Source: an uncultured bacterium (GTDB lineage: Bacteria > Desulfobacterota > Dissulfuribacteria > Dissulfuribacterales > UBA3076). Taken from it: DNA of 41,986 nt. The stretch is taken from the NCBI GenBank assembly GCA_965539945.1, contig CBETWD010000003.1, positions 1 through 41,986 on the forward strand. Direction: 5' to 3'. Positions 10,950-41,758 of this stretch are shown piece by piece; position 1 is the first letter of the stretch, and each line of letters begins with the position of its first letter. The notes beneath the pieces were generated by a model. The model was not told where the DNA came from. It ran no database searches and saw only the letters and a list, made by a program, of their open reading frames with translations. The translations under genes and the position numbers were made by a program.

Positions 10950-11321
10950 CTATGTTGCTTGCAAGTTGTAAGGTTTTATTAGAATTTCAGCCGATATACC
11001 TAAACCATTTTGAAGTTTTCTTATCATAGTGATGGACAGGGACCTTTTTTTGTTTAAAATTTCTGACACTCGTGCCCTTGAGCCAATAAGTGGTATTAAG
11101 TCTTTACGGGATAGCCCCTGACTTTCCATTTGATGAATGATGGCTTCTACTGGTTCAGGTGGAAGTATTGGATGATGTTTTTCTTCGTATGCCTCTATTA
11201 AGGTAACCAATACATCAAGTTTGTCTCCTTCAGGAGTGTCTTTTTGAGCACTCATCAAATTTTCAACTTCTTGTAAAGCTGCATTGTAGTCAGTTTCTGA
11301 TTTAATAGGCTTGATATTCAT
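10950..11321 (-). CDS. higA: HigA-family antitoxin (cassette-borne)
   Basis: IKPIKSETDYNAAL, LVTLIEAYEEKH, IGSRARVSEILNKKRSLS. Confidence 0.92.
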   Translation of the reverse strand: MNIKPIKSETDYNAALQEVENLMSAQKDTPEGDKLDVLVTLIEAYEEKHHPILPPEPVEAIIHQMESQGLSRKDLIPLIGSRARVSEILNKKRSLSITMIRKLQNGLGISAEILIKPYNLQAT

Positions 11322-11329
11322 ATATCACC

Positions 11330-11623
11330 TCATATTGTTGTTGCATCAATTTTGTCATAAGCCTCATGGCTACCAACAAAGCGGATATAAATAATTCCGA
11401 AGTCATAATTAATTGCTGTCACGAGACGATATGTGTTGCCTTTTATGTTGAAAATAACTCGATTATTAGCAACAAAGCTGGCATTTCTATAATCGATTTT
11501 TATGTCGTTTGAAGTTTTCCATTCTGCTAATTTTACTTTTGCATGCCATGACTTTAAAGGTTGTTCAGCATCTGCATGGATTTTCCAAAATTCTCTTAAT
11601 GTCTTTTTTGAAATTATCCTCAT
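11330..11623 (-). CDS. higB: HigB-family mRNA interferase toxin (cassette-borne)
   Basis: MRIISKKTLREFW, RVIFNIKGNTYRL, IRFVGSHEAYDKID; toxin-first gene order. Confidence 0.93.
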   Translation of the reverse strand: MRIISKKTLREFWKIHADAEQPLKSWHAKVKLAEWKTSNDIKIDYRNASFVANNRVIFNIKGNTYRLVTAINYDFGIIYIRFVGSHEAYDKIDATTI

Positions 11624-12014: not shown

Positions 12015-12938
12015 TCACAATTTCCTCAATGACTGATGACCAATGTCGTCGGCAGGCAACATTTTCAACTCCGATATCCTGGGAAAACCACCGCGATCAT
12101 GTAGCAGCCTGAAGAAATGGAGCAGACCCTGCTGCTTTTTTTCTGAAAGATCGAGTTCTATGCCCTTAAGATATCCCAGACAGTCTGATGAGGTCATTGG
12201 TATCTTGTGGGCAACCAGATTACTTATACGTTCGAGTTCAATCAGGCCCTTGTGATAGCATTCGCTGAGGCGCTTATGGAGGAGACGAATTTTTTCCGGC
12301 CATGCAACCCAGATTTCTTCTCTGATGGCCCATACGGCAAATACAAAAGGCAGACCTGTATGGTCCAACCATATTTTGGCTAGATCCGACCGGAATAGAT
12401 TATCAGTGTTAGATCGCAGCCTCAGGGCCTCGTCCCCTATGGCGAGGTAGGCCTGGGCCACGGGATTTACCGACAGTTCCTTAAAATTTCCTGTCCTGAA
12501 TATGGGTCTCATTCCTAAAAAGTCTTCAAGTATTATATGCAAAAGGTTGACGGATGTTGCGGATTGAGGAGTTAATAGCACAAGTTTTTCATTGAGTTCT
12601 TCAATTGGGACCTTGCTGAGAAGGATCACGCTCCCCACAGGGCCGGTAGCACTTATACTCAGGTTTGGCAATATGTAGTATCTGTCTGCATTGAGGCCGT
12701 ATGCATAGGAGGAAACAATACCCGCATCCAGTTTCCCCTGGGCCAAATGGCTGTTCAAAAAGGTGGGCGGGCCCTCTTCCACCACCCATCCATTGAGAGG
12801 ACCCATTTCCTGCCAGGGGACATAGATCGGCGAGGTATTAATAAAGTTCACAATGCCCAGTTTGGCATACTGAATATTGCCGGCCTCCAACCCCTTTTTC
12901 ATTCCGGATTTTACCTCTTCAATCACCAAATCACCCAA
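12015..12938 (-). CDS. mqnA: Chorismate dehydratase MqnA (exact start uncertain)
   Basis: LGIVNFINTSPI, GPPTFLN, ISATGPVGSV, SATSVNL, LAIGDEAL, TGLPFVFAVW; lies in the mqn cluster. Confidence 0.9.
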   Translation of the reverse strand: MGDLVIEEVKSGMKKGLEAGNIQYAKLGIVNFINTSPIYVPWQEMGPLNGWVVEEGPPTFLNSHLAQGKLDAGIVSSYAYGLNADRYYILPNLSISATGPVGSVILLSKVPIEELNEKLVLLTPQSATSVNLLHIILEDFLGMRPIFRTGNFKELSVNPVAQAYLAIGDEALRLRSNTDNLFRSDLAKIWLDHTGLPFVFAVWAIREEIWVAWPEKIRLLHKRLSECYHKGLIELERISNLVAHKIPMTSSDCLGYLKGIELDLSEKKQQGLLHFFRLLHDRGGFPRISELKMLPADDIGHQSLRKL

Positions 12939-12957
12939 TCACCAAATCACCCAATCC
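12920..12957. repeat. 8-bp tandem repeat (AATCACCA/AATCACCC) at the deaminase-mqnA overlap
   Basis: CAATCACCAAATCACCCAATCACCAAATCACCCAATC; same unit at 37129-37167 and 38905-38950. Confidence 0.9.
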
Positions 12958-14217
12958 CCTGCATCCTTCATGGACAAGGAATTCCAGGATATCTTTATTG
13001 CCAATGGGACCCGACTCTACTGCCAAAAATGTTGCGGCTTTGCCCCTGGCCAGACTCCCCAATTCTTCAGAGATACCAAGGGCCCTTGCTCCACCATAAG
13101 TGCCTGCCCTGAAAATGGCCTCTGGAGGAAGACCGGGGGCCAGCTTTGAAAGGCTTGCCATTTCGGCGAAGATGGAAAGCCGGTCGTTGCTTGCAAGGCT
13201 ATCTGTACCAAGGGCCAATGGTATGCCTGAAGCATGAAGCTCTTCCACAGGAGCCACACCCACTCCAAGGAATACATTGCTCCTGGGACACAGACAAACG
13301 CCAGCCCCTGTTTTTGCCAGGATTGAGATGTCATCCCGGTCCACCTGGACACAGTGAACACAGACAGTATGCCTATCAAGTAGCCCCAAGGTTTCAAGAT
13401 ACCTCACAGGAGACGCTTTGGGGAGATCATAATTCAAGGGCCAGTGTCCTTTTTCTTTTAAGAGTTCTATTAGGGGACCCTGCCTACCTTGCAGGAACTC
13501 TATCTCCTCTTCTGATTCAGCCACGTGAATGGGAAACGGCATGCCATGGCTCTGATCCCATGCCTTAATGGCTTTAAGGACCGTCGGCGCCACAGAATAC
13601 GGGGCATGGGCGGAAAAGGCATAGCGAAAAGATGGCCCCAAGATGTCCATGGGTTCAGGAACTTTTTCATTTACAAAAAGGGGGCTGAGAGGGATTTCTT
13701 CCTCCGCTCCATTCGGTATCGGGCATACCAGTTCTTGAAAGAAGACGCCCCTGAAAGGCCATGTGCCATCTTTTTTGGAAGAAAAAAGCGGGATAACATC
13801 CAGATTTCCCACGTCTCCAACGGCAATTATCCCGTTTTTTTGCATCTCTTTTATCGCCTGACATATGGCCGGTTCCCATTCTTCAGGCCTGATCAGGTCG
13901 CGGGCCTCAATAAGCGCTCTTACCCAGTCAACAAAGGAACCGCTTGGAGAAAGACGCCACCTGAGGGGAGAGAGTTCAAGGTGAGAGTGGGTATTTATCA
14001 GGGCGGGACAAAGTATGGAGTCTCCATAGTCTTTTATCTCTGCCTGATAGCTTGCGCGGAGTTCCGATGCCGGTCCTACCCCTACTATTTTTCCTTCAAA
14101 GGTCGCTATTGCCCCATTTTCTATTGGAGGCCTTGAGACAGGAACCACCCATCTGGCTATGTGAAGATGGAAAGAACTTGGTGATTTGGTGTAGGGGTTC
14201 AGAGGTTCAGGGTTCAC
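12931..14217 (-). CDS. Amidohydrolase, probable aminodeoxyfutalosine deaminase
   Basis: INTHSHLEL, HAPYS, IHVAES, VHCV, LCPRSN, LGTDSLAS; lies between mqnC and mqnA. Both termini are repeat-derived. Confidence 0.8.
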   Translation of the reverse strand: MNPEPLNPYTKSPSSFHLHIARWVVPVSRPPIENGAIATFEGKIVGVGPASELRASYQAEIKDYGDSILCPALINTHSHLELSPLRWRLSPSGSFVDWVRALIEARDLIRPEEWEPAICQAIKEMQKNGIIAVGDVGNLDVIPLFSSKKDGTWPFRGVFFQELVCPIPNGAEEEIPLSPLFVNEKVPEPMDILGPSFRYAFSAHAPYSVAPTVLKAIKAWDQSHGMPFPIHVAESEEEIEFLQGRQGPLIELLKEKGHWPLNYDLPKASPVRYLETLGLLDRHTVCVHCVQVDRDDISILAKTGAGVCLCPRSNVFLGVGVAPVEELHASGIPLALGTDSLASNDRLSIFAEMASLSKLAPGLPPEAIFRAGTYGGARALGISEELGSLARGKAATFLAVESGPIGNKDILEFLVHEGCRGLGDLVIG

Positions 14218-14527
14218 CGTTCAGGGTTACCTTTCTGTAAGGGTTCAGAGGTTCAGAGGTTCAGGGTTCACAGGTTACATTGAAAGATGAACGTCGAACA
14301 TCCAACATCGAACGTCCAACGTCGAATGAAAAACAAATATCCAATACCGAACACACAACAGCTATTTCTATTTCTTCATCTTTTTCTTGACCCTTGCCCC
14401 CTGACCCTTGCCCCTCTGAACCCATGTTCTGTTTCTTCATCTTTTCCCATTCAAAATTCGATGTTGGACGTTCGATGTTCGATGTTCATCTTTTTTCTTG
14501 AACCCTGAACCCATTAACCCATTAACC
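14195..14527. repeat. Nested repeat element A, copy 1 (outer GGTTCAG/CTGAACC arms, inner AACATCG/CGATGTT arms)
   Basis: Core GAATGAAAAACAAATATCCAATACCGAACACACAACAGCTATTTCTATTTCTTCATCTTTT recurs inverted at about 18.76-18.82 kb. Confidence 0.92.
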
Positions 14528-36373: not shown

Positions 36374-37177
36374 TCATTGCCCTGCAACGGCTGAACGAAC
36401 TGCATCCAGATCCTCCGGTGTGTCCACTTCCAGCGGGGCCTCTTCAACCCTCACAACTCCGATCGAGTAGCCATTTTCAAGGGCCCTGAGCTGTTCCAGC
36501 CGTTCTATCTGTTCGAGTTTCCCCGGAGGGAGAGTAACAAAGGTCTGAAGAAAATTCTGCCTATAGGCGTATAGGCCCAGGTGCCTGAGATAGTCATGGC
36601 CTGATCCTTTGGGCAGGTCTCCCACTGTATCAGCGTCTCTGTAGTATGGAATCATGGCCCTGGAGAAGTAGAGGGCCTTCCGGTTATTGTCCACTACCAC
36701 CTTAACCCGGTTGGGATTCAGGGCCTCCCGGGCCTCAAGAGGACATGCAGGAGTTGTCATGGCAAAATCAGGAACCTCAAGGAGCATTTTTATAATTTCA
36801 ACTACTGGTCGCGAATCAAGCAGGGGCTGGTCTCCCTGGATATTAACCACGACATCATTGTCTGAAAGTTCGAGAAGCCTAGCCACCTCTGCAATCCGGT
36901 CCGTCCCGGAAGGATGGCCGGGGTCTGTCATAAAAACCCTTCCACCGGCTGTTTCCACGCACTCTGCAATCCTCGAATCATCAGTCGCCACTACTACCTG
37001 ATCAATGCCGGGGACCTCCAGTGCCCTCTGGTACACATGGAGAATCATCGGGCGGCCCTGAATCTTTGCAAGGGGTTTCCCCGGAAATCTGGATGAGCCA
37101 AAACGTGCCGGGATTATGGCAAACACTTTGATTTGGTGATTTGGTGATTGGGTGATTTGGTGATTGGAAAGATTCAT
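36374..37177 (-). CDS. kdsB: 3-deoxy-manno-octulosonate cytidylyltransferase
   Basis: IIPARFGSSRFPGKPL, VATDD, SGTDR, NIQGDQP, ALYFSR, LEQLRALENG. The N-terminal NHQITQSPNHQI is repeat-derived. Confidence 0.97.
   Translation of the reverse strand: MNLSNHQITQSPNHQIKVFAIIPARFGSSRFPGKPLAKIQGRPMILHVYQRALEVPGIDQVVVATDDSRIAECVETAGGRVFMTDPGHPSGTDRIAEVARLLELSDNDVVVNIQGDQPLLDSRPVVEIIKMLLEVPDFAMTTPACPLEAREALNPNRVKVVVDNNRKALYFSRAMIPYYRDADTVGDLPKGSGHDYLRHLGLYAYRQNFLQTFVTLPPGKLEQIERLEQLRALENGYSIGVVRVEEAPLEVDTPEDLDAVRSAVAGQ
37129..37167. repeat. TGGTGATT octamer array inside the kdsB 5' end
   Basis: TGATTTGGTGATTTGGTGATTGGGTGATTTGGTGATTGG. Confidence 0.9.
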
Positions 37178-37218
37178 GTGATTTACCTAGGGTCAAAAGT
37201 GCCTAAAGTGAGCTAAAG

Positions 37219-38121
37219 TTATGGAATGGTGTCTCCCGGCAACCCCCTGGACTGGCTGTCTTTCTGTTTGATCTCCAGGGCAAGCGGATATACCTGGCTC
37301 TTGGTCATACCGGTAAGGCGGACCAAAAGATCCACACTATCCCTGATTGACAAGCTCTTTTCTGAAATCAGGTGCTGAAGCGCCTTTCCTACTGCCTCCG
37401 GATCCCGGCAGGATTTCCTGTGTCTATCCTCATCCGCCCCTTCTATCACTAAGGTAATCTCACCTTTCACACGTCCCTTTGAAAGCTGCTCTATAATACC
37501 TGATACTAAGCCGGATATTACAGTCTCATACATCTTTGTGAGCTCCCTGGCCATTACCATTCTCCTATCCCCTAAAACACCCAGGATATCTTCCAGGGCA
37601 TCAAGCAGGCGATGGGGTGCCTCGAAAATTACGATTGTGTGAGGGATTTCTGCCAGTTGCTCAAGGGTCTTGCGTCTTTCAGCCCGCTTGTTTGGAAGAA
37701 AGCCAGCGAAAAAAAATGAGTCTGCCGGCATGGCTGCCACGCTCAGGGCCGCAACAATAGCAGATGCCCCTGGTACCGGAACTACGCTGAAACCAGCCTC
37801 CCTGACGAGTTTTACCAGGCCTGCACCCGGGTCTGAGAGTGCAGGGGTGCCGGCATCTGATACCAGAGCCACGTCCTTCCCTTCTGCAAGCAAGGTAATG
37901 ACCTTTTTGGCACTGGTCCTTTCATTGTGCTTGTGGCAGCTCAAGAGGCCGGCCTTGATGCCCATATGAGTGAGTAGCTTTCTGGTACCCCTTGTATCTT
38001 CCGCCGCAACAAGAGAAACCTCACCAAGGACCTCTTTTGCCCTTATACTAATGTCTTTAAGATTTCCAATGGGAGTGCCTACTACATAGAGGACCCCTTT
38101 ATTTGGTGATTTAATCGGCAT
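37219..38121 (-). CDS. rsmI: 16S rRNA C1402 2'-O-methyltransferase
   Basis: LYVVGTPIGNL, AEDTR, VSDAGTPALSDPG, FEAPHR, ARELTKMYE, KGEI. Confidence 0.97.
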   Translation of the reverse strand: MPIKSPNKGVLYVVGTPIGNLKDISIRAKEVLGEVSLVAAEDTRGTRKLLTHMGIKAGLLSCHKHNERTSAKKVITLLAEGKDVALVSDAGTPALSDPGAGLVKLVREAGFSVVPVPGASAIVAALSVAAMPADSFFFAGFLPNKRAERRKTLEQLAEIPHTIVIFEAPHRLLDALEDILGVLGDRRMVMARELTKMYETVISGLVSGIIEQLSKGRVKGEITLVIEGADEDRHRKSCRDPEAVGKALQHLISEKSLSIRDSVDLLVRLTGMTKSQVYPLALEIKQKDSQSRGLPGDTIP

Positions 38122-38325
38122 TCTTCATTCACCGGTTTACACTTTTCCCGAAGTCGAAACTGGAAATTCGAAATTCGAAATTAGGTAACGCATCCCTTTA
38201 TAGACAATGTTGAATGCTAAATGCTGAATTGTGGAATAAGATTTAAAAGACATATACCTTAATTCAAAATTTAGAATTTAGAATTCAAAATTGTGTCTGA
38301 ACGGCCTTTTCGTTCAGACACTAAT
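38111..38325. repeat. Composite intergenic repeat: GAAATTC arm, then TGAAT(G/T)(C/T)/AATTCAA arms and hairpin
   Basis: The left part matches 9214-9325 and the right part matches 16757-16822. Confidence 0.88.
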
Positions 38326-38920
38326 CACTTGATTGTCTGTATACATGAAAAATACGCTGCAGGGCGGTTATGTGCGTAAAAATTGCGATAATTACCAGAA
38401 CCGGATAAATCCATCCGAAGACAAGGCCCACAACAAGGATGAATATACGTTCAAACCTGGTAAGCACTCCCACCTTACAGCTAAAACCCAGGGCCTCTGC
38501 CCTTGCCCTGGTGTAGCTGACAAGGAGAGACCCTGTCATTGCGGAAAGTACAAGGGCCGCTTCGACCAAACCGCCCTGCCTGTGCAGCATCAGATAGGCC
38601 ATCAGCCCCAGAAAGAGAAAGAATTCAGCATACCTGTCCACTGTTGAGTCAAGAAAGGCGCCAAAGGGGCTGACCCGTCCCTGCTCCCTGGCGAGCAGTC
38701 CATCAACAGCATCCAGGGGTCCGAATACGACAAGCAGCCAACCGGCAGCCGCCGGATGACCCATGCCAAGTACCATGCCGCTTGCTCCATAGGCAATAAG
38801 CCCGATGATGCTGACCATGTTGGGAGATAGACCGAGCTTTCCCAAAAAACGGGCCACTAAAAGCAGATAGGGCCTGAACCGGTCACGACACCAATCGCTG
38901 AAAGACCAATCAATCACCAA
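38321..38920 (-). CDS. CDP-alcohol phosphatidyltransferase (phosphatidylinositol-phosphate synthase-like)
   Basis: SPNMVS, DAVDGLLAR...GAFLDSTVDRYAE, SLLVSYTRARAEALG, RFERI. Confidence 0.88.
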   Translation of the reverse strand: MVIDWSFSDWCRDRFRPYLLLVARFLGKLGLSPNMVSIIGLIAYGASGMVLGMGHPAAAGWLLVVFGPLDAVDGLLAREQGRVSPFGAFLDSTVDRYAEFFLFLGLMAYLMLHRQGGLVEAALVLSAMTGSLLVSYTRARAEALGFSCKVGVLTRFERIFILVVGLVFGWIYPVLVIIAIFTHITALQRIFHVYRQSSD

Positions 38921-38950
38921 ATCACCAAATCACTCAATCACCAAATCACT
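38905..38950. repeat. AATCACCA octamer array spanning the ileS stop and the next start
   Basis: ACCAATCAATCACCAAATCACCAAATCACTCAATCACCAAATCACT. Confidence 0.9.
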
Positions 38951-41758
38951 CAGCACTCTTGAACACCGGCCGCATACATCAGGCCATGAAGGGTCTTTGC
39001 CCACATCTTCACTCCAGGTCCAACACCTGGCGCATTTTTCACCCGCTGCCTGGATAACCTTGACAGCAAGCCCTTCTATCTCATCGCTCTGCCATACAGT
39101 ACTGTCCCCTGAGTCAAGTTCCCCACTCAAGTCAAGCTGGGAAACAATGGTAATAGTCCTTAGTAGTTCCCTGTGTTCTTCCATGAAGTCTGCCATATTT
39201 TCAGGAGGCCTTATCAGGACCTTTGCATCCAGGGCAAGGCCTATCCGTTTTTCTTTCCTGGCAAGTTCCAGTGCCTTTGTAACTTCTCCCCGGATTTTCC
39301 ATAGGAGTTCCCATTCAGCATTGAACGATTTATCAATGGAAATGGACGGGGGATCAGGCAACTCAGCCAGAAAAATACTCTCAGTCCCAGCGCTTGGCAG
39401 GTGGCTCCAGGCCTCCTCAGCAGTAAATGAAAGTATCGGGGCCATAAGAAGCACTATATCATGGACAATACGGTAAATGGCTGTCTGGGCAGAACGGCGG
39501 ATACGGCCCTCCGGGTGCTCACAGTAGAGTCTGTCTTTTAAGATATCCAGATAGAGTGCGCTCAGGTCAACTATGCAGAACTGTTGTATTTGGCGGAACA
39601 CACCGTGGAAATTAAACTCCTTATAGGCATGTTTGACGCTTGTAGTTATTTCTCCAAGCCTCACCAGGGCCCAGCGATCAAGGGCTTCCAGTCGGTCAAA
39701 ATCCAAAGAGTGCTTATCCGGGTCAAAATCAGACAGGTTGCTGAGAAGATAACGGATAGTATTGCGGATCTTCCTGTATGCCTCAGTCAGGCGCTGAAGT
39801 ATCTCGTTTGAGATCTTTATATCATCCTGGTAGTCCTCTGCTGAGACCCAGAGCCTCAGCACCTCTGCTCCGTATTTCTTGATGACATCAGCCGGCGGGA
39901 TAACATTACCCACTGACTTGGACATCTTTTTCCCCTTTCCGTCCACAACAAAACCATGGGTAAGCACTGCCTCGTAGGGTGCCTTGTGTCTGGTCGCAAC
40001 GCTGGTAAGAAGTGAACTCTGGAACCATCCCCTGTGCTGATCACTTCCTTCCAGATAAAGGGCAGCCGGAGAGGAAAGCCCTTCCCGGGTCTCCAGGACC
40101 GCTGCATGGCTCACCCCTGAATCAAACCAGACATCCAGTATATCGATCTCTTTGCGAACTCTTGTGCCTCCACACTTTGGACAAGCAGTTCCAGGAGGAA
40201 GGAATTCCTCTGCCTCCCTTGCAAACCACGCATCAGAGCCTTCTTTTTCAAAGATTTCTACCAGGCGATCCGCTATTGCCCGGTCCATTACAGGTTCTTC
40301 GCAATCCTCACAGATAAGGACCGTAAGGGGAATACCCCAAGCCCTCTGTCTGGAAATGCACCAATCAGGCCTTGTCTCTATCATTCCGTAAATACGCTCT
40401 TTTCCCCAGTCCGGAATCCATCTGACGGTCTCAATGGCGCGAAGGGCCTCTTCACGCAACGCCCCTGCCTCCATGGAGATGAACCACTGCGCGGTTGCTC
40501 GAAAAATTACCGGCTTTTTGCAACGCCAGCAGTGGGGATAGCTGTGCTCAATGGTCTCATGAGCCACAAGGCTGCCCTTATCTCGCAGCATTTCAACAAT
40601 CTTGTCATTTGCATTAAAAATGTTTTCTCCCTCGAATTCCTTTACCTCTGATGTAAACCTGCCGTAGTCGTCCACAGGGGAATAGATATCAAGGCCGTAT
40701 CTGATGCCGCTTTCATAGTCATCCGCTCCGTGGCCCGGAGCTGTGTGAACACAGCCTGTGCCTGTATCAAGCGTAACATAAGGGGCGATAATGATGAGAC
40801 TATCCCTTTCAAGGAAGGGGTGTTTTACATGCATTCCTTCAATATCTCCGCCCCTGAATGTACCGAGGACTTTGGCATCTTTCTGCTCAAGACCAGCATC
40901 AATCAGGGTAGAAAGCAACCTTCCCTCTGCCAGTATCCAGACTTCTTTTTCCCCACCAACCTGGACCTCAACAGCCACATAGTCAAAGTCAGGGTGCAGC
41001 GCCACCGCCAGGTTGGCAGGCAGAGTCCAGGGAGTAGTGGTCCAGATAAGCGCAAAGGCAGGACCGGCCAACATTCCAAAACGATCCTCAAGCCACTGTT
41101 TGAGGACATCTCCGGCTGCAAATCTTACTGTAATTGAAGGAGACTTGTGTGGGGCGTACTCTACCTCAGCCTCTGCCAGTGCAGTCACACAAGTAGGACA
41201 CCAATAGACTGGTTTTTTACTCTTAATGACATGACCATCCATAAATATGTGACAGAACTCTCTACAGATGGCGGCTTCGTAGTCGTATGTCATTGTGAGA
41301 TAAGGGTTATCCCAGTCTCCCAATATTCCAAGCCTTGAGAATTCTTCTTTCTGTATGCGTACAAATTTTTCCGCATAGCGCCGGCACGCCTTACGCACGG
41401 CCAACTTGCTCATCTTGGACCTCTTGGACCCCAAGTCTTTCTCAACGTTGTGCTCAATGGGCAGTCCGTGGCAGTCCCACCCCGGCACATACGGCGTATC
41501 AAACCCCATCATATGGTGAGATTTTACAATTATGTCCTTCAGGACCTTATTGATCGCATGCCCCAGGTGTATGTGGCCATTTGCATAGGGAGGGCCGTCA
41601 TGAAGTATGAAAGGGGGCCGTCCCTGTCCTTGTTCTCTCAGGTGCCCATAAAGGTCCATGGCCTTCCAGCGCTTGAGCATTTCAGGCTCCCGCTGAGCGA
41701 GATTTGCCTTCATTGGAAAGCGTGTCTTAGGAAGGCTTAGTGTCTTTTTGTATTCCAT
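38930..41758 (-). CDS. ileS: Isoleucine--tRNA ligase (type 1)
   Basis: LHDGPPYANG, HLGH, GWDCHGLP, WTTTPWT, KMSKS, C-terminal CARCW...CGRC. Confidence 0.98.
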   Translation of the reverse strand: MEYKKTLSLPKTRFPMKANLAQREPEMLKRWKAMDLYGHLREQGQGRPPFILHDGPPYANGHIHLGHAINKVLKDIIVKSHHMMGFDTPYVPGWDCHGLPIEHNVEKDLGSKRSKMSKLAVRKACRRYAEKFVRIQKEEFSRLGILGDWDNPYLTMTYDYEAAICREFCHIFMDGHVIKSKKPVYWCPTCVTALAEAEVEYAPHKSPSITVRFAAGDVLKQWLEDRFGMLAGPAFALIWTTTPWTLPANLAVALHPDFDYVAVEVQVGGEKEVWILAEGRLLSTLIDAGLEQKDAKVLGTFRGGDIEGMHVKHPFLERDSLIIIAPYVTLDTGTGCVHTAPGHGADDYESGIRYGLDIYSPVDDYGRFTSEVKEFEGENIFNANDKIVEMLRDKGSLVAHETIEHSYPHCWRCKKPVIFRATAQWFISMEAGALREEALRAIETVRWIPDWGKERIYGMIETRPDWCISRQRAWGIPLTVLICEDCEEPVMDRAIADRLVEIFEKEGSDAWFAREAEEFLPPGTACPKCGGTRVRKEIDILDVWFDSGVSHAAVLETREGLSSPAALYLEGSDQHRGWFQSSLLTSVATRHKAPYEAVLTHGFVVDGKGKKMSKSVGNVIPPADVIKKYGAEVLRLWVSAEDYQDDIKISNEILQRLTEAYRKIRNTIRYLLSNLSDFDPDKHSLDFDRLEALDRWALVRLGEITTSVKHAYKEFNFHGVFRQIQQFCIVDLSALYLDILKDRLYCEHPEGRIRRSAQTAIYRIVHDIVLLMAPILSFTAEEAWSHLPSAGTESIFLAELPDPPSISIDKSFNAEWELLWKIRGEVTKALELARKEKRIGLALDAKVLIRPPENMADFMEEHRELLRTITIVSQLDLSGELDSGDSTVWQSDEIEGLAVKVIQAAGEKCARCWTWSEDVGKDPSWPDVCGRCSRVLSDLVIE

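What the first reader, a model, noticed from the sequence alone, without database searches (positions are those of the whole stretch)
12920..12957. TGGTGATT octamer acts as a stop/RBS/start unit at coupled gene junctions
Seen: at deaminase-mqnA and at ileS-phosphatidyltransferase (38905-38950) the coding strand is (TTGGTGAT)n. The proteins end GDLVIG* and SDLVIE*, and the next ORFs begin within the array. An 8-bp unit shifts frame with each copy, so three copies place TGA, GGTGA and TTG/GTG in every frame. In the reverse orientation (kdsB, 37129-37167) the array has no stop and is translated as NHQITQSPNHQI. Inference: the unit permits insertion without breaking operon translation, and copy-number change could frameshift kdsB.
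Basis: partly seen in the sequence, partly recalled or inferred. Interest (0 to 1): 0.7.

Follow-up and report, generated by a model that had tools for sequence, protein, structure and literature searches.

The report
Octamer repeat filling operon gene junctions
An 8-base tandem repeat found almost only in one genus of uncultured seep bacteria sits only inside genes or in tight gaps between genes of an operon, where one strand ends the upstream gene and probably offers a ribosome-binding site to the next, while the other strand is simply translated.

Summary
Three (TGGTGATT)n arrays lie at the stated places (12 two-unit matches against 0.05 expected). The amidohydrolase and IleRS do end in an array, as GDLVIG* and SDLVIE*.

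- **Stops:** in relatives of the genus the stop lies in repeat-derived sequence in all 14 loci of junction 1, and in most of the 13 readable loci of junction 2.
- **Starts:** only 1 of 7 compared junctions starts inside the array (the phosphatidyltransferase, GTG in the last unit). mqnA starts at a conserved ATG 18 nt downstream. In five others a conserved ATG lies 0-8 nt after the array with no canonical Shine-Dalgarno between.
- **RBS:** the unit pairs with this genome's 16S 3' tail as well as AGGAGG does (-9.4 against -9.2 kcal/mol), so an RBS role is plausible. It is inferred, not shown.
- **Orientation:** genome-wide it follows position strictly. All 20 TGA-bearing arrays lie in spacers; 39 of 40 stop-free arrays are translated.
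- **Niche:** among 851 short tandem arrays of all families, this is the only large family that lives in ORFs and tight operon junctions.
- **kdsB:** the array is translated. Its length changes only in 3-unit steps across 17 species, so frameshift variants are purged and not used as a switch.

Close precedents are TAACTGA repeats and MIRUs. The scan had already reported the in-frame blocks elsewhere in this genome (e1-3891557).

The parts
12921..12956 (-). Octamer array, 4.5 units, TGA-bearing strand on the mRNA. It fills the amidohydrolase-to-mqnA junction.
   Evidence: Repeat-derived sequence is present at the same site in all 14 genus loci; it is degenerate in 4 of them (L010-L013).
12931..12933 (-). 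TGA stop of the amidohydrolase (aminofutalosine-deaminase-like), inside the array
   Evidence: the stop lies in repeat-derived sequence in all 14 genus loci. G011, with only 2.5 units, ends 7 residues earlier (EGCR*), so the repeat-coded tail is dispensable.
12914..12920 (-). GAAGAGG, a Shine-Dalgarno-like motif of mqnA lying outside the array
   Evidence: Conserved next to the array in the genus loci. Duplex with the 16S tail is -7.4 kcal/mol.
12900..12902 (-). ATG, the likely true start of mqnA
   Evidence: Conserved ATG (or an ATG 2 codons later) in the 14 genus loci. It lies 18 nt after the array end. The Pfam VitK2_biosynth match begins at residue 26 of the longest ORF.
38912..38950 (-). 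Octamer array, about 4.8 units, TGA-bearing strand on the mRNA. It fills the ileS-to-phosphatidyltransferase junction.
38930..38932 (-). TGA stop of ileS, inside the array
   Evidence: across the genus the tails after the zinc finger vary (SDLVIE*, GNLVIE*, SDLVI*, NKFSD*...). Outgroups end with unrelated tails.
38915..38917 (-). GTG in the last array unit, the likely start of the CDP-alcohol phosphatidyltransferase (alternative: TTG 38918-38920)
   Evidence: the sequence GTGATT(A/G)ATTGGTCT stands before the ORF in all 15 genus loci where the upstream sequence could be read. In G007 the ileS TGA overlaps this GTG as GTGA. Outgroups start 1-3 codons before WSFSDW.
37128..37165 (-). Octamer array in the stop-free orientation, translated as residues 5-16 of KdsB
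   Evidence: The distance from ATG to the conserved core is 9, 17, 25 or 33 codons in 17 genus loci. An X1 contig spans the array with 0 differences.
37175..37177 (-). ATG start of kdsB, 4 codons before the array
   Evidence: Conserved in 16 of 17 genus loci and always in frame. No SD-like sequence lies between the array and GTG 37126.
37124..37126 (-). GTG codon (Val18) where similarity to array-free outgroup N-termini (MK(V/I)VAIIPAR) begins

Best explanation
The arrays belong to an octamer microsatellite-like repeat (unit TTGGTGAT, most often 4.5 units = 36 nt). It was common in this genus and nearly unseen in a sample of the rest of the phylum, and it lives only inside transcription units.

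Its two strands have opposite coding properties, and these decide where each orientation can persist.
- The AAATCACC strand has no stop and no start in any frame. It is read through as an in-frame NHQITKSP-type peptide in loops, linkers and N-terminal tails. kdsB is one case.
- The TGGTGATT strand carries TGA in every frame within three units. It can survive only at the very end of a cistron.

At such an end the array does three things.
- It terminates the upstream ORF, adding at most about 8 dispensable residues.
- It fills the short spacer.
- It places GGUGAU, complementary to the 16S 3' tail, 0-8 nt before the next start codon. Each unit also holds a GTGA stop/start overlap.

The downstream gene is then most likely translated by ordinary initiation or termination-reinitiation on that motif. 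The start is usually a native ATG just past the array, and in the phosphatidyltransferase it is the GTG of the last unit.

The repeat is a tolerated passenger whose sequence happens to be compatible with operon junctions. It is not an evolved regulatory cassette.

Shown: positions, orientation rule, conservation, copy-number behaviour, complementarity to the 16S tail. Inferred: ribosome binding, coupling, and how the repeat spreads.
For: Census:
- My scan of the 2.6 Mb genome finds 60 arrays.
- 20 TGA-bearing arrays lie in 16 spacers, 15 between co-directional genes and 1 convergent.
- The upstream stop is inside the array in 9 of the 16 spacers, 1-4 nt before it in 6, and far away in 1.
- 39 of 40 stop-free arrays lie inside ORFs. 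The last one abuts an ATG.
- Pfam places the 11 in-ORF arrays I checked, in 10 proteins, inside real genes, for example LeuRS, LpxB, GpsA, SelB, MurG, a class III aminotransferase and DnaE.

Special niche:
- Of 851 short tandem arrays of all families, the octamer (40 by TRF) has 30 in ORFs and none in convergent spacers, divergent spacers or contig ends. The larger families have 0-4 in ORFs.
- Among arrays whose sense strand has stops in 3 frames, 13 of 15 octamer arrays begin within 5 nt of the upstream stop, against 44 of 147 for other families (Fisher p 2.6e-5).
- 10 of those 15 lie in spacers of 80 nt or less, against 14 of 147 (p 1.5e-6).

Comparative evidence at 7 sense junctions:
- The start is inside the array at 1 junction, 18 nt after it with its own GAGG at 1, and a conserved ATG 0-8 nt after it with no GGAG, GAGG or AGGA between at 5.
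- Larger insertions of 120-230 nt in relatives always leave the last units next to the start.

Ribosome pairing:
- The 16S rRNA ends GGATCACCTCCTTTCT.
- Duplex energy with that tail is -9.4 kcal/mol for the unit, -9.2 for AGGAGG and -2.0 for the other strand.

Copy number:
- Translated arrays change only in 3-unit steps. kdsB measures 9/17/25/33 codons in 17 loci. The in-ORF array at C100:4534 is in frame in 12 of 12 loci, and its length classes differ by 24 nt (24/48 and 39/63), apart from a 9-nt difference in the flank.
- Junction arrays change by one or two units, for example 19/27/35/43/53 nt, 27 to 75 nt, and 2.5 to 8.5 units.

Distribution: a 24-mer of three units occurs in 3 of 301 genomes sampled across the phylum. 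One of the three is this genome, which holds 97 of the 100 matches.
Against: - No expression or ribosome data exist, so the RBS role rests on complementarity and position only.
- GGTGAT is not a common SD in this genome. It occurs in 10 of 1240 upstream regions near starts against 6 in a control window, whereas GGAGG occurs in 117 against 5.
- Two other repeat families pair with the 16S tail about as well (-11.1 and -9.8 kcal/mol), and none of their arrays in that pairing orientation lies within 20 nt of a start (0 of 0 and 0 of 14 tandem-junction arrays). Complementarity alone therefore does not explain the niche.
- A pure filter on random insertion predicts many arrays in long, neutral spacers, and almost none are there. 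Some bias in where the repeat arises is needed and remains unexplained.
- Genes were called with my own crude ORF caller, so starts outside the 7 compared junctions are approximate.
- Relatives are kin, and arrays in one spacer are not independent, so the p-values overstate.
Confidence: 0.65

Rival explanations
1. The strong form of the first reader's idea. The octamer is an evolved, portable stop/RBS/start cassette. Ribosomes are handed through the array by successive GTGA stop-start overlaps, so the repeat can colonise coupled junctions without loss of coupling. Slippage in kdsB acts as an on/off switch.
For: - Every unit contains GTGA, an NTGA overlap, preceded by a 16S-complementary motif.
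- In G007 the ileS-transferase junction is a plain GTGA overlap made of repeat units.
- The octamer is the only large family in tight junctions.
- Outgroup junctions were overlapping or 4 nt apart in 4 of 5 loci.
- A review says MIRUs insert at start codons with a coupled internal ORF (PMC12548453, passages read).
Against: - The relay geometry occurs in 7 of 15 spacers. That is the last GTG open into the downstream frame (3) or its mini-ORF ending in an ATGA overlap (4). Rough chance expectation is about 0.47.
- Stop-to-start distance in junction 1 ranges from 19 to 207 nt among species, so tight coupling is not held.
- All 5 kdsB length variants among 17 loci are in frame.
- Starts lie outside the array in 6 of 7 junctions.
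Confidence: 0.1
2. The repeat is a purely neutral microsatellite with no part in translation. Downstream genes are initiated without any contribution from the repeat, and the pattern only reflects where disruption is not lethal.
For: - Copy number drifts freely in junctions.
- Repeat-coded tails are dispensable (G011 lacks the one on the amidohydrolase).
- mqnA keeps its own SD-like motif.
- More than 100 other repeat families populate the same genome.
Against: - In 5 of 7 junctions the array is the only SD-like sequence within 20 nt of a conserved ATG.
- In relatives without the array at C100:4884 a different spacer ending in TAGGTATAAAATT is present.
- Insertions never separate the last units from the start.
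- Only 1 stop-free array lies in a spacer, in 1 spacer, against the 16 spacers that hold TGA-bearing arrays.
Confidence: 0.2
3. The arrays are ends or footprints of a small mobile composite element, in which two octamer arrays flank a module of about 30 nt rich in GTCTGTG. The target choice of that element, not translation, sets the distribution.
For: - In the ileS-transferase junction 10 of the 14 genus relatives with both anchors (11 of 15 with G000) carry the module or a degenerate copy between two arrays (one of them only partly readable). G000, G001, G004 and G007 have arrays alone.
- The same module follows or precedes arrays at 5 other places in G000.
Against: - Most arrays (about 55 of 60) have no module next to them.
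- No inverted repeats and no fold beyond shuffles were found (z 0.25, -0.32, -0.59).
- Step series of single units, and one-unit proto-sites at native stops in divergent relatives, fit local slippage better.
Confidence: 0.15
4. The arrays are an assembly or sequencing artefact of a metagenome bin.
For: The genome is a 317-contig draft, and public run contigs break at the arrays.
Against: - The same arrays stand at the same sites in up to 17 separately assembled genomes of the genus.
- Reading frames are kept.
- An X1 contig spans the kdsB array with 0 differences.
Confidence: 0.01

Closest known systems
TAACTGA heptamer direct repeats of marine Beggiatoaceae, some Cyanobacteria and Bacteroidetes (MacGregor 2015, PMC4679880; abstract and passages read)
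   Same: - Short tandem direct repeats of 2-6 copies.
- The forward strand has stops in all three frames, so it can only overlap the end of an ORF (13 such cases in that paper).
- Most sit a few nucleotides before a start codon, where the RBS is expected.
- Reverse copies occur inside ORFs and are translated.
- Indels come in unit steps between strains.
- A role in translation was proposed there but not shown.
   Different: - The unit here is 8 nt with an unrelated sequence.
- TAACTGA has, in the author's words, little SD character, whereas this unit pairs with the 16S tail as well as AGGAGG does.
- Most copies here (39 of 60) are inside ORFs, whereas TAACTGA is mostly intergenic.
- The modal length is 36 nt, which is 12 codons.
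- The host lineage is different.
MIRUs, mycobacterial interspersed repetitive units (as summarised in the translational-coupling review PMC12548453; passage read; the original papers were not read)
   Same: - Repeats inside operons, placed at start codons.
- They carry their own stop/start overlaps, so expression of the flanking gene is little disturbed.
- Copy number varies.
   Different: MIRU units are tens of bases long and contain a small ORF (recalled, not checked here). Here the unit is 8 nt, the mini-ORFs are 3 codons, and the same repeat is also translated in frame in the other orientation.
Phase-variable simple sequence repeats (contingency loci) of Neisseria and Haemophilus (recalled, no paper read)
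   Same: A tandem repeat whose unit length is not a multiple of three lies inside an ORF, so single-unit slippage shifts the frame.
   Different: No out-of-frame allele was seen in 17 species for kdsB or in 12 loci for the C100 gene. The genes concerned are housekeeping genes, not surface or restriction genes.
Rickettsia palindromic elements and similar in-frame repeat insertions
   Same: Repeats tolerated in frame inside essential genes.
   Different: Those elements are palindromic MITE-like units. Here the repeat is a direct tandem repeat with no fold.
Ordinary NTGA stop/start overlaps of coupled genes (PMC12548453, passages read)
   Same: Each unit contains GTGA, and the G007 form of the ileS-transferase junction is exactly such an overlap.
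   Different: The overlap is multiplied in tandem, and it occurs at many unrelated junctions with the same 8 bases.

Membership tests
TAACTGA-type / STRR-type short tandem direct repeats | Tandem direct repeats of a 7-8 nt unit, a few copies, at many places in the genome | tested here: met
   60 arrays, mode 4.5 copies. 851 arrays of all families.
TAACTGA-type / STRR-type short tandem direct repeats | The unit sequence is TAACTGA (or a cyanobacterial STRR heptamer) | tested here: not met
   The unit is TTGGTGAT. This is the same kind of repeat but not the same family.
TAACTGA-type / STRR-type short tandem direct repeats | One strand has stops in all frames and the other is open; forward copies lie at ORF ends just before starts | tested here: met
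   Starts lie 0-8 nt after the array in 5 of 7 compared junctions.
TAACTGA-type / STRR-type short tandem direct repeats | Mostly intergenic | tested here: not met
   39 of 60 arrays are inside ORFs.
Shine-Dalgarno element | Complementary to the 3' tail of the organism's own 16S rRNA | tested here: met
   The tail was read from the genome. Duplex energy is -9.4 kcal/mol against -9.2 for AGGAGG.
Shine-Dalgarno element | Placed a few nucleotides before the start codon | tested here: met
   The last GGTGAT ends 2-9 nt before the start in 6 of 7 compared junctions. For mqnA the distance is 19 nt.
Shine-Dalgarno element | Binds ribosomes and raises initiation | not testable with these tools
   No ribosome or reporter data exist. 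The organism is uncultured.
Translationally coupled junction | Stop and start overlap or lie within about 25 nt | tested here: met
   From stop to start there are 12 nt (transferase) and 28 nt (mqnA) in the window. Among relatives the range is 19-207 nt. The spacing range for coupling comes from PMC12548453.
Translationally coupled junction | Downstream translation depends on upstream translation | not testable with these tools
   This needs a two-cistron reporter.
Phase-variable contingency locus | Alleles that differ by non-multiples of three bases and switch the ORF on and off | tested here: not met
   Between species, kdsB measures 9/17/25/33 codons in 17 loci and C100:4534 is in frame in 12 of 12 loci. 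Within populations this could not be tested, because only contigs were available.
MITE / REP / RPE-type mobile repeat | Inverted repeats or a stable hairpin | tested here: not met
   Fold z-scores are 0.25, -0.32 and -0.59. No Rfam family matched in the window.

The most novel reading that the evidence does not exclude
The octamer is a repeat adapted to life inside operons. It spreads between sites that carry a TGATT or GGTGA seed. On one strand it is a ready-made stop plus anti-SD-pairing site (and sometimes the start) that can replace the whole spacer of a coupled gene pair. On the other strand it is a 12-codon neutral linker. Because GGUGAU arrays bind the 16S tail, their copy number could tune how much of the downstream protein is made, giving a heritable, slippage-driven dial on operon stoichiometry.
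Probability: 0.15. Interest if true: 0.7.

Novelty: new variant of a known kind. Interest (0 to 1): 0.45.

Why it matters
The case shows how the sequence of a spreading repeat decides where it can live. Among more than 100 repeat families in one small genome, the only large one that occupies ORFs and tight operon junctions combines three properties: a stop in every frame, a strong match to the ribosome's 16S tail, and a stop-free complementary strand.

It also gives a natural experiment. Translated copies change length only in steps of three units, while untranslated copies change by one or two. That contrast can be used to tell translated from untranslated sequence in uncultured organisms.

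For annotation, starts called inside such arrays are mostly wrong (6 of 7 compared here), and protein ends inside them are real.

Tried and rejected
- **Read-level copy-number variation.** The one search for runs gave only Logan contigs. Laid on 36900-39100, they break at the arrays and list no indels. This says nothing for or against heterogeneity.
- **RNA structure of the arrays.** No fold beyond shuffles.
- **Rfam on the window.** No match.
- **Ribosome relay through GTGA overlaps into the downstream start.** The geometry is present in 7 of 15 spacers, about what chance gives, so I do not count it as evidence.
- **Long-range pairing of the two inverted arrays (37128-37165 and 38912-38950) in one mRNA.** A terminator-like hairpin after the transferase gene makes a common transcript doubtful. 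The similar pair at C100 is not kept together in relatives.
- **SD complementarity as the sole reason for the niche.** Rejected, because the CAGAGGTT and CAGGGGTT families pair about as well and no array of theirs in that orientation lies within 20 nt of a start.
- **Earlier notes.** The look-up by sequence found nothing.
- **Literature.** Searches for 'Seep-SRB2' with 'tandem repeat' and for the 16-mer string found 0 papers. 'AAATCACC' alone gave 1,720 unrelated hits.
Full report
**1. The observation**

Tandem Repeats Finder reports the following:

| Position | Copies | Matches |
|---|---|---|
| 12921-12956 | 4.5 | 89% (100% as period 16) |
| 37129-37165 | 4.6 | 93% |
| 38912-38949 | 4.8 | 86% |

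A two-unit 16-mer with up to 2 mismatches matches 12 times in the window, against 0.05 expected. None of 100 shuffles reaches 12.

All five genes concerned lie on the minus strand. Pfam names them as an amidohydrolase, an MqnA-family protein, IleRS, a CDP-alcohol phosphatidyltransferase and a KdsB-type cytidylyltransferase.
- On that strand the first and third arrays read (TGGTGATT)n. The amidohydrolase ends ...GLGDLVIG and IleRS ends ...VLSDLVIE, each with a TGA inside the array.
- The kdsB array reads (AATCACCA)n. The ORF from ATG 37177 gives MNLSNHQITQSPNHQIKVFAIIPAR.
- The frame arithmetic is right. One strand gives FGDLVIW* in every frame, with TTG and GTG in each. The other gives NHQITKSP with no stop and no start.

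**2. Setting**

The window is contig C3 of a draft genome of 2.6 Mb, 317 contigs and 47% G+C. Earlier notes of this scan call the organism a methane-seep sulfate reducer (Seep-SRB2). I did not check that name. The public runs that hold the stretch are marine-sediment and cold-seep metagenomes.

The genome is full of short tandem repeats.
- TRF gives 2075 rows, mostly of period 7 and 8.
- After merging, there are 851 arrays of period 6-10 with at least 3 copies.
- The octamer is the commonest period-8 family.

My own scan finds 60 octamer arrays. Their lengths peak at 35-42 nt, typically AATT followed by four units.

Three units in a row (up to 2 mismatches) occur in 3 of 301 genomes sampled across the phylum. 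This genome is one of the three and holds 97 of the 100 matches. None of the 9 sampled genomes of other families of the order has a match.

Within the genus, 13 of 17 relatives give dozens of array matches. The four most divergent (G004, G009, G012, G013) give only 1-11.

**3. Orientation against position**

I used my own ORF caller (2182 genes, 83% coding). Its starts are approximate.

TGA-bearing arrays:
- The 20 arrays whose TGA strand matches the neighbouring genes lie in 16 spacers, 15 between co-directional genes and 1 convergent.
- The upstream stop is inside the array in 9 of the 16 spacers, 1-4 nt before it in 6, and far away in 1.

Stop-free arrays:
- Of the 40, 39 lie inside ORFs and 1 abuts an ATG.
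- 14 of the 39 are within 120 nt of the ORF's 5' end. In 8 of these the array sits 1-8 codons after an ATG, with no later start available.
- 24 are deep inside the ORF, and 1 is at the 3' end.

Pfam shows that the in-ORF arrays I checked (11 arrays in 10 proteins) lie in real genes and often inside domains. Examples are the LeuRS editing domain, LpxB, GpsA, a SelB winged helix, MurG, a class III aminotransferase and the N-terminus of DnaE.

**4. The octamer is not like the other repeat families**

By TRF, 30 of 40 octamer arrays are in ORFs and 10 are at co-directional junctions (9 with the TGA strand as sense). None is in a convergent spacer, a divergent spacer or a contig end. The larger families (46-69 arrays each) have 0-4 in ORFs and are found in all kinds of spacer. 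This holds even for families that also have a stop-free strand.

| Arrays whose sense strand has stops in all 3 frames | Octamer | Other families | Fisher p |
|---|---|---|---|
| Begin within 5 nt of the upstream stop | 13 of 15 | 44 of 147 | 2.6e-5 |
| Lie in spacers of 80 nt or less | 10 of 15 | 14 of 147 | 1.5e-6 |

Only about 6% of co-directional intergenic bases lie in spacers that short. Arrays within one spacer are not independent, so these p-values are generous. The difference is still large.

**5. The three window sites in relatives**

*Junction 1, amidohydrolase to mqnA.*
- All 14 genus loci have repeat-derived sequence at the site, and the stop lies inside it in all. It is degenerate in 4 loci (L010-L013), where the stop is TGA or TAA.
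- Clean arrays hold 2.5, 4.5, 6.5 or 8.5 units. One locus has about 150 nt of extra sequence.
- The distance from the stop to the mqnA start is 19-207 nt.
- G011 has 2.5 units and ends EGCR*, so the repeat-coded tail is dispensable.
- mqnA starts at a conserved ATG (12902, or 2 codons later), behind a conserved GAAGAGG and 18 nt after the array. The TTG at 12938 is a by-product of taking the longest ORF.
- In 5 outgroup loci there is no array. There the genes overlap or lie 4 nt apart in 4 loci, and 38 nt apart in 1. These distances are extrapolated from alignments.

*Junction 2, ileS to the phosphatidyltransferase.*
- The transferase N-terminus WSFSDW is conserved. Outgroups start with ATG or GTG 1-3 codons before it.
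- In the genus the only start codons available are the GTG (38917) or the TTG (38920) of the last unit. The sequence GTGATT(A/G)ATTGGTCT stands before the ORF in all 15 genus loci where I could read it.
- In G007 the ileS TGA overlaps that GTG as GTGA. So this gene does start in the array.
- In 10 of the 14 relatives with both anchors, a module of about 30 nt rich in GTCTGTG (degenerate in two, only partly readable in one) splits the array in two. One further relative (G017) has an unrelated insert of about 180 nt.

*kdsB.*
- Outgroups begin MK(V/I)VAIIPAR. In the genus the array lies between the ATG and that core.
- The distance from the ATG to the core is 17 codons in 12 of 17 loci, 25 in 2, 33 in 1 and 9 in 2.
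- All five departures are multiples of 3 units (24 nt). That is what a translated array must do, and what an untranslated one need not do.

**6. Five more TGA-strand junctions compared in the genus**

| Junction | Sequence from last unit to start | Bases between array end and ATG |
|---|---|---|
| C100:4884 | GGTGATTGAATT-ATG | 5 |
| C280:622 | GGTGATTT-ATG | 0-1 |
| C38:8537 | GGTGATTGGTAGACT-ATG | 8 |
| C11:7452 | GGTGATTGC-ATG | 2 |
| C24:996 | GGTGATTGTCTCGC-ATG | 7 |

- In each case the ATG is conserved across species, and there is no GGAG, GAGG or AGGA between the array and the ATG.
- The native stop lies 0-4 nt before the array or in its first unit.
- Spacer lengths form unit series, for example 19/27/35/43/53 nt at C38 and 27 to 75 nt at C11.
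- At C280, C38 and C24 some of the divergent species (and G017 at C280) carry only one unit or a degenerate stretch at the native stop, such as ...TTGGTGATTT-ATG or ATTCAGTGACC. The arrays therefore seem to grow from a stop or SD-like seed.
- Where relatives have bigger insertions (120-230 nt), the insertions always lie upstream of the last units, which stay next to the start.
- At C100:4884, relatives without the array have a longer spacer that ends in TAGGTATAAAATT before the same ATG.

**7. Ribosome pairing**

The genome's 16S rRNA ends GGATCACCTCCTTTCT.

| Sequence | Duplex energy with the 16S tail, kcal/mol |
|---|---|
| One repeat unit | -9.4 |
| AGGAGG | -9.2 |
| mqnA's own motif (GAAGAGG...) | -7.4 |
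| The stop-free strand | -2.0 |

GGUGAU pairs with the part of the tail just inside CCUCC. From my own knowledge of aligned spacing, not from a call, a short distance of 1-6 nt to the start is therefore what one would expect.

Against this, three points:
- The genome mostly uses GGAGG. It occurs in 117 of 1240 upstream regions near starts against 5 in a control window, while GGTGAT occurs in 10 against 6.
- Two other repeat families pair about as well, and no array of theirs in that orientation lies within 20 nt of a start.
- The arrays have no fold beyond shuffles.

**8. What I conclude**

*Shown.* This is a repeat, common in this genus and nearly unseen in the phylum sample, that lives only in ORFs and tight operon junctions. 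Its orientation is dictated by stop content. Its stops are the real stops of upstream genes. It occupies the RBS position of several downstream genes and supplies the start of one. Its copy number is quantised where it is translated and free where it is not.

*Inferred.* The last units act as the ribosome-binding site, or hold a terminating ribosome for reinitiation. The repeat spreads to, or grows at, sites with a matching seed. Selection removes copies that break a frame or separate a start from its RBS.

The scarcity of stop-free copies in spacers (1 spacer, against 16 with TGA-strand copies) fits the last point. A stop-free copy in front of a start would push the RBS away and offers none of its own.

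*Unexplained.* The repeat is almost absent from long neutral spacers.

**9. Rivals**

- A purpose-built relay cassette is not needed. The relay geometry occurs in 7 of 15 spacers, near chance, and stop-to-start distances drift widely.
- A phase switch in kdsB finds no support between species.
- A composite mobile element with a GTCTGTG-rich core may explain some sites but not most.
- An assembly artefact is excluded by conservation at the same sites in separately assembled genomes, and by a run contig that spans the kdsB array unchanged.

**10. Known relatives of the idea**

- MacGregor (2015, PMC4679880; abstract and passages read) described TAACTGA repeats with the same strand logic. They also overlap upstream stops and sit at the RBS position of downstream genes. 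She proposed a translational role.
- A 2025 review (PMC12548453; passages read) says MIRUs insert at start codons with a coupled internal ORF, which likely limits harm. It also reports one study in which coupling efficiency did not change for spacings from -4 to +25 nt.

The present repeat is a new variant of this kind. It is an octamer, it matches the anti-SD region, it is mostly genic, and its copy number is quantised.

I found no paper that holds the two-unit string (0 hits). The search pairing Seep-SRB2 with tandem repeats also found none. Subscription journals and supplements were not searched.

**11. Limits**

- There are no raw reads, no RNA ends and no ribosome data.
- Gene calls are my own.
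- Relatives are kin.
- Only 7 of 16 sense spacers were compared across species.

Noticed in passing
L046, L052, L054 (G010, G011, G016), orthologous to window 37126-37260: In three relatives the spacer between the upstream tetrapyrrole-methylase-family gene and kdsB is gone. One open frame of 568-596 aa runs through both genes and the translated array. This could be a real fusion protein, or a lost stop with an internal start.
   Followed up: no
window 38112-38321: A contig of run X11 (depth about 200) joins 38111 directly to 38322. The 210-nt spacer with two heptamer arrays between the transferase gene and the methylase gene is therefore absent in another population (table 5).
   Followed up: no
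L022-L036 (ileS-transferase junction of relatives); G000 C1:25638-25670, C1:27830-27859, C18:21670-21705, C38:3189-3220: A module of about 30 nt rich in GTCTGTG, ending in GGCTAAA, sits between two octamer arrays at several sites, including inside ORFs. It may be part of a small mobile element.
   Followed up: partly
G000 C107:7161-7199, C50:10778-10821, C26:14452-14496, C212:1435-1486, C80:8779-8828, C27:7112-7163, C35:15102-15160: Stop-free arrays sit 1-8 codons after the ATG of housekeeping genes (for example DnaE, and a pilin-like leader), with no later start codon. N-terminal tails seem to be a favoured place, whereas only 1 array is at a C-terminal end.
   Followed up: partly
window 14178-14193 and 14195-14527: A two-unit octamer in the stop-free orientation lies near the 5' end of the amidohydrolase ORF. 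Next to it is a 330-nt island of five different tandem repeat families. The longest-ORF start, GTG 14217, lies in that island and is probably not the real start.
   Followed up: no
L161 (G008) and L165 (G013), junction orthologous to G000 C24:996-1022; also L014 (G006) and L033 (G017): Inserts of about 150-230 nt lie inside octamer junctions. The G008 and G013 inserts look alike although the species are distant in the genus. The others are different sequences.
   Followed up: no
window 37128-37165 and 38912-38950: The two arrays form an inverted pair 1.75 kb apart. Run contigs show joints between them (table 5), which most likely reflects the shared repeat in the assembly graph and not a real inversion.
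   Followed up: partly
window 38293-38321, minus strand: A terminator-like hairpin (11 pairs, 6 G-C, T-rich tail) lies right after the phosphatidyltransferase gene.
   Followed up: no
window 11330-11623, minus strand: A small ORF with a HigB/RelE-type toxin domain (Pfam E 4e-30), with a neighbouring small ORF at 10950-11321. This is probably a toxin-antitoxin pair.
   Followed up: no
L012, L013 (G012, G013), orthologous to window 12921-12956: In the divergent species the junction-1 repeat has decayed at the DNA level, yet the protein tail keeps a similar pattern (VGDWVIG*, LGYWIIG*). Outgroup tails end in loosely similar hydrophobic stretches (CHLING*, CYWIED...). This could be chance or a weak constraint on the last strand.
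   Followed up: no
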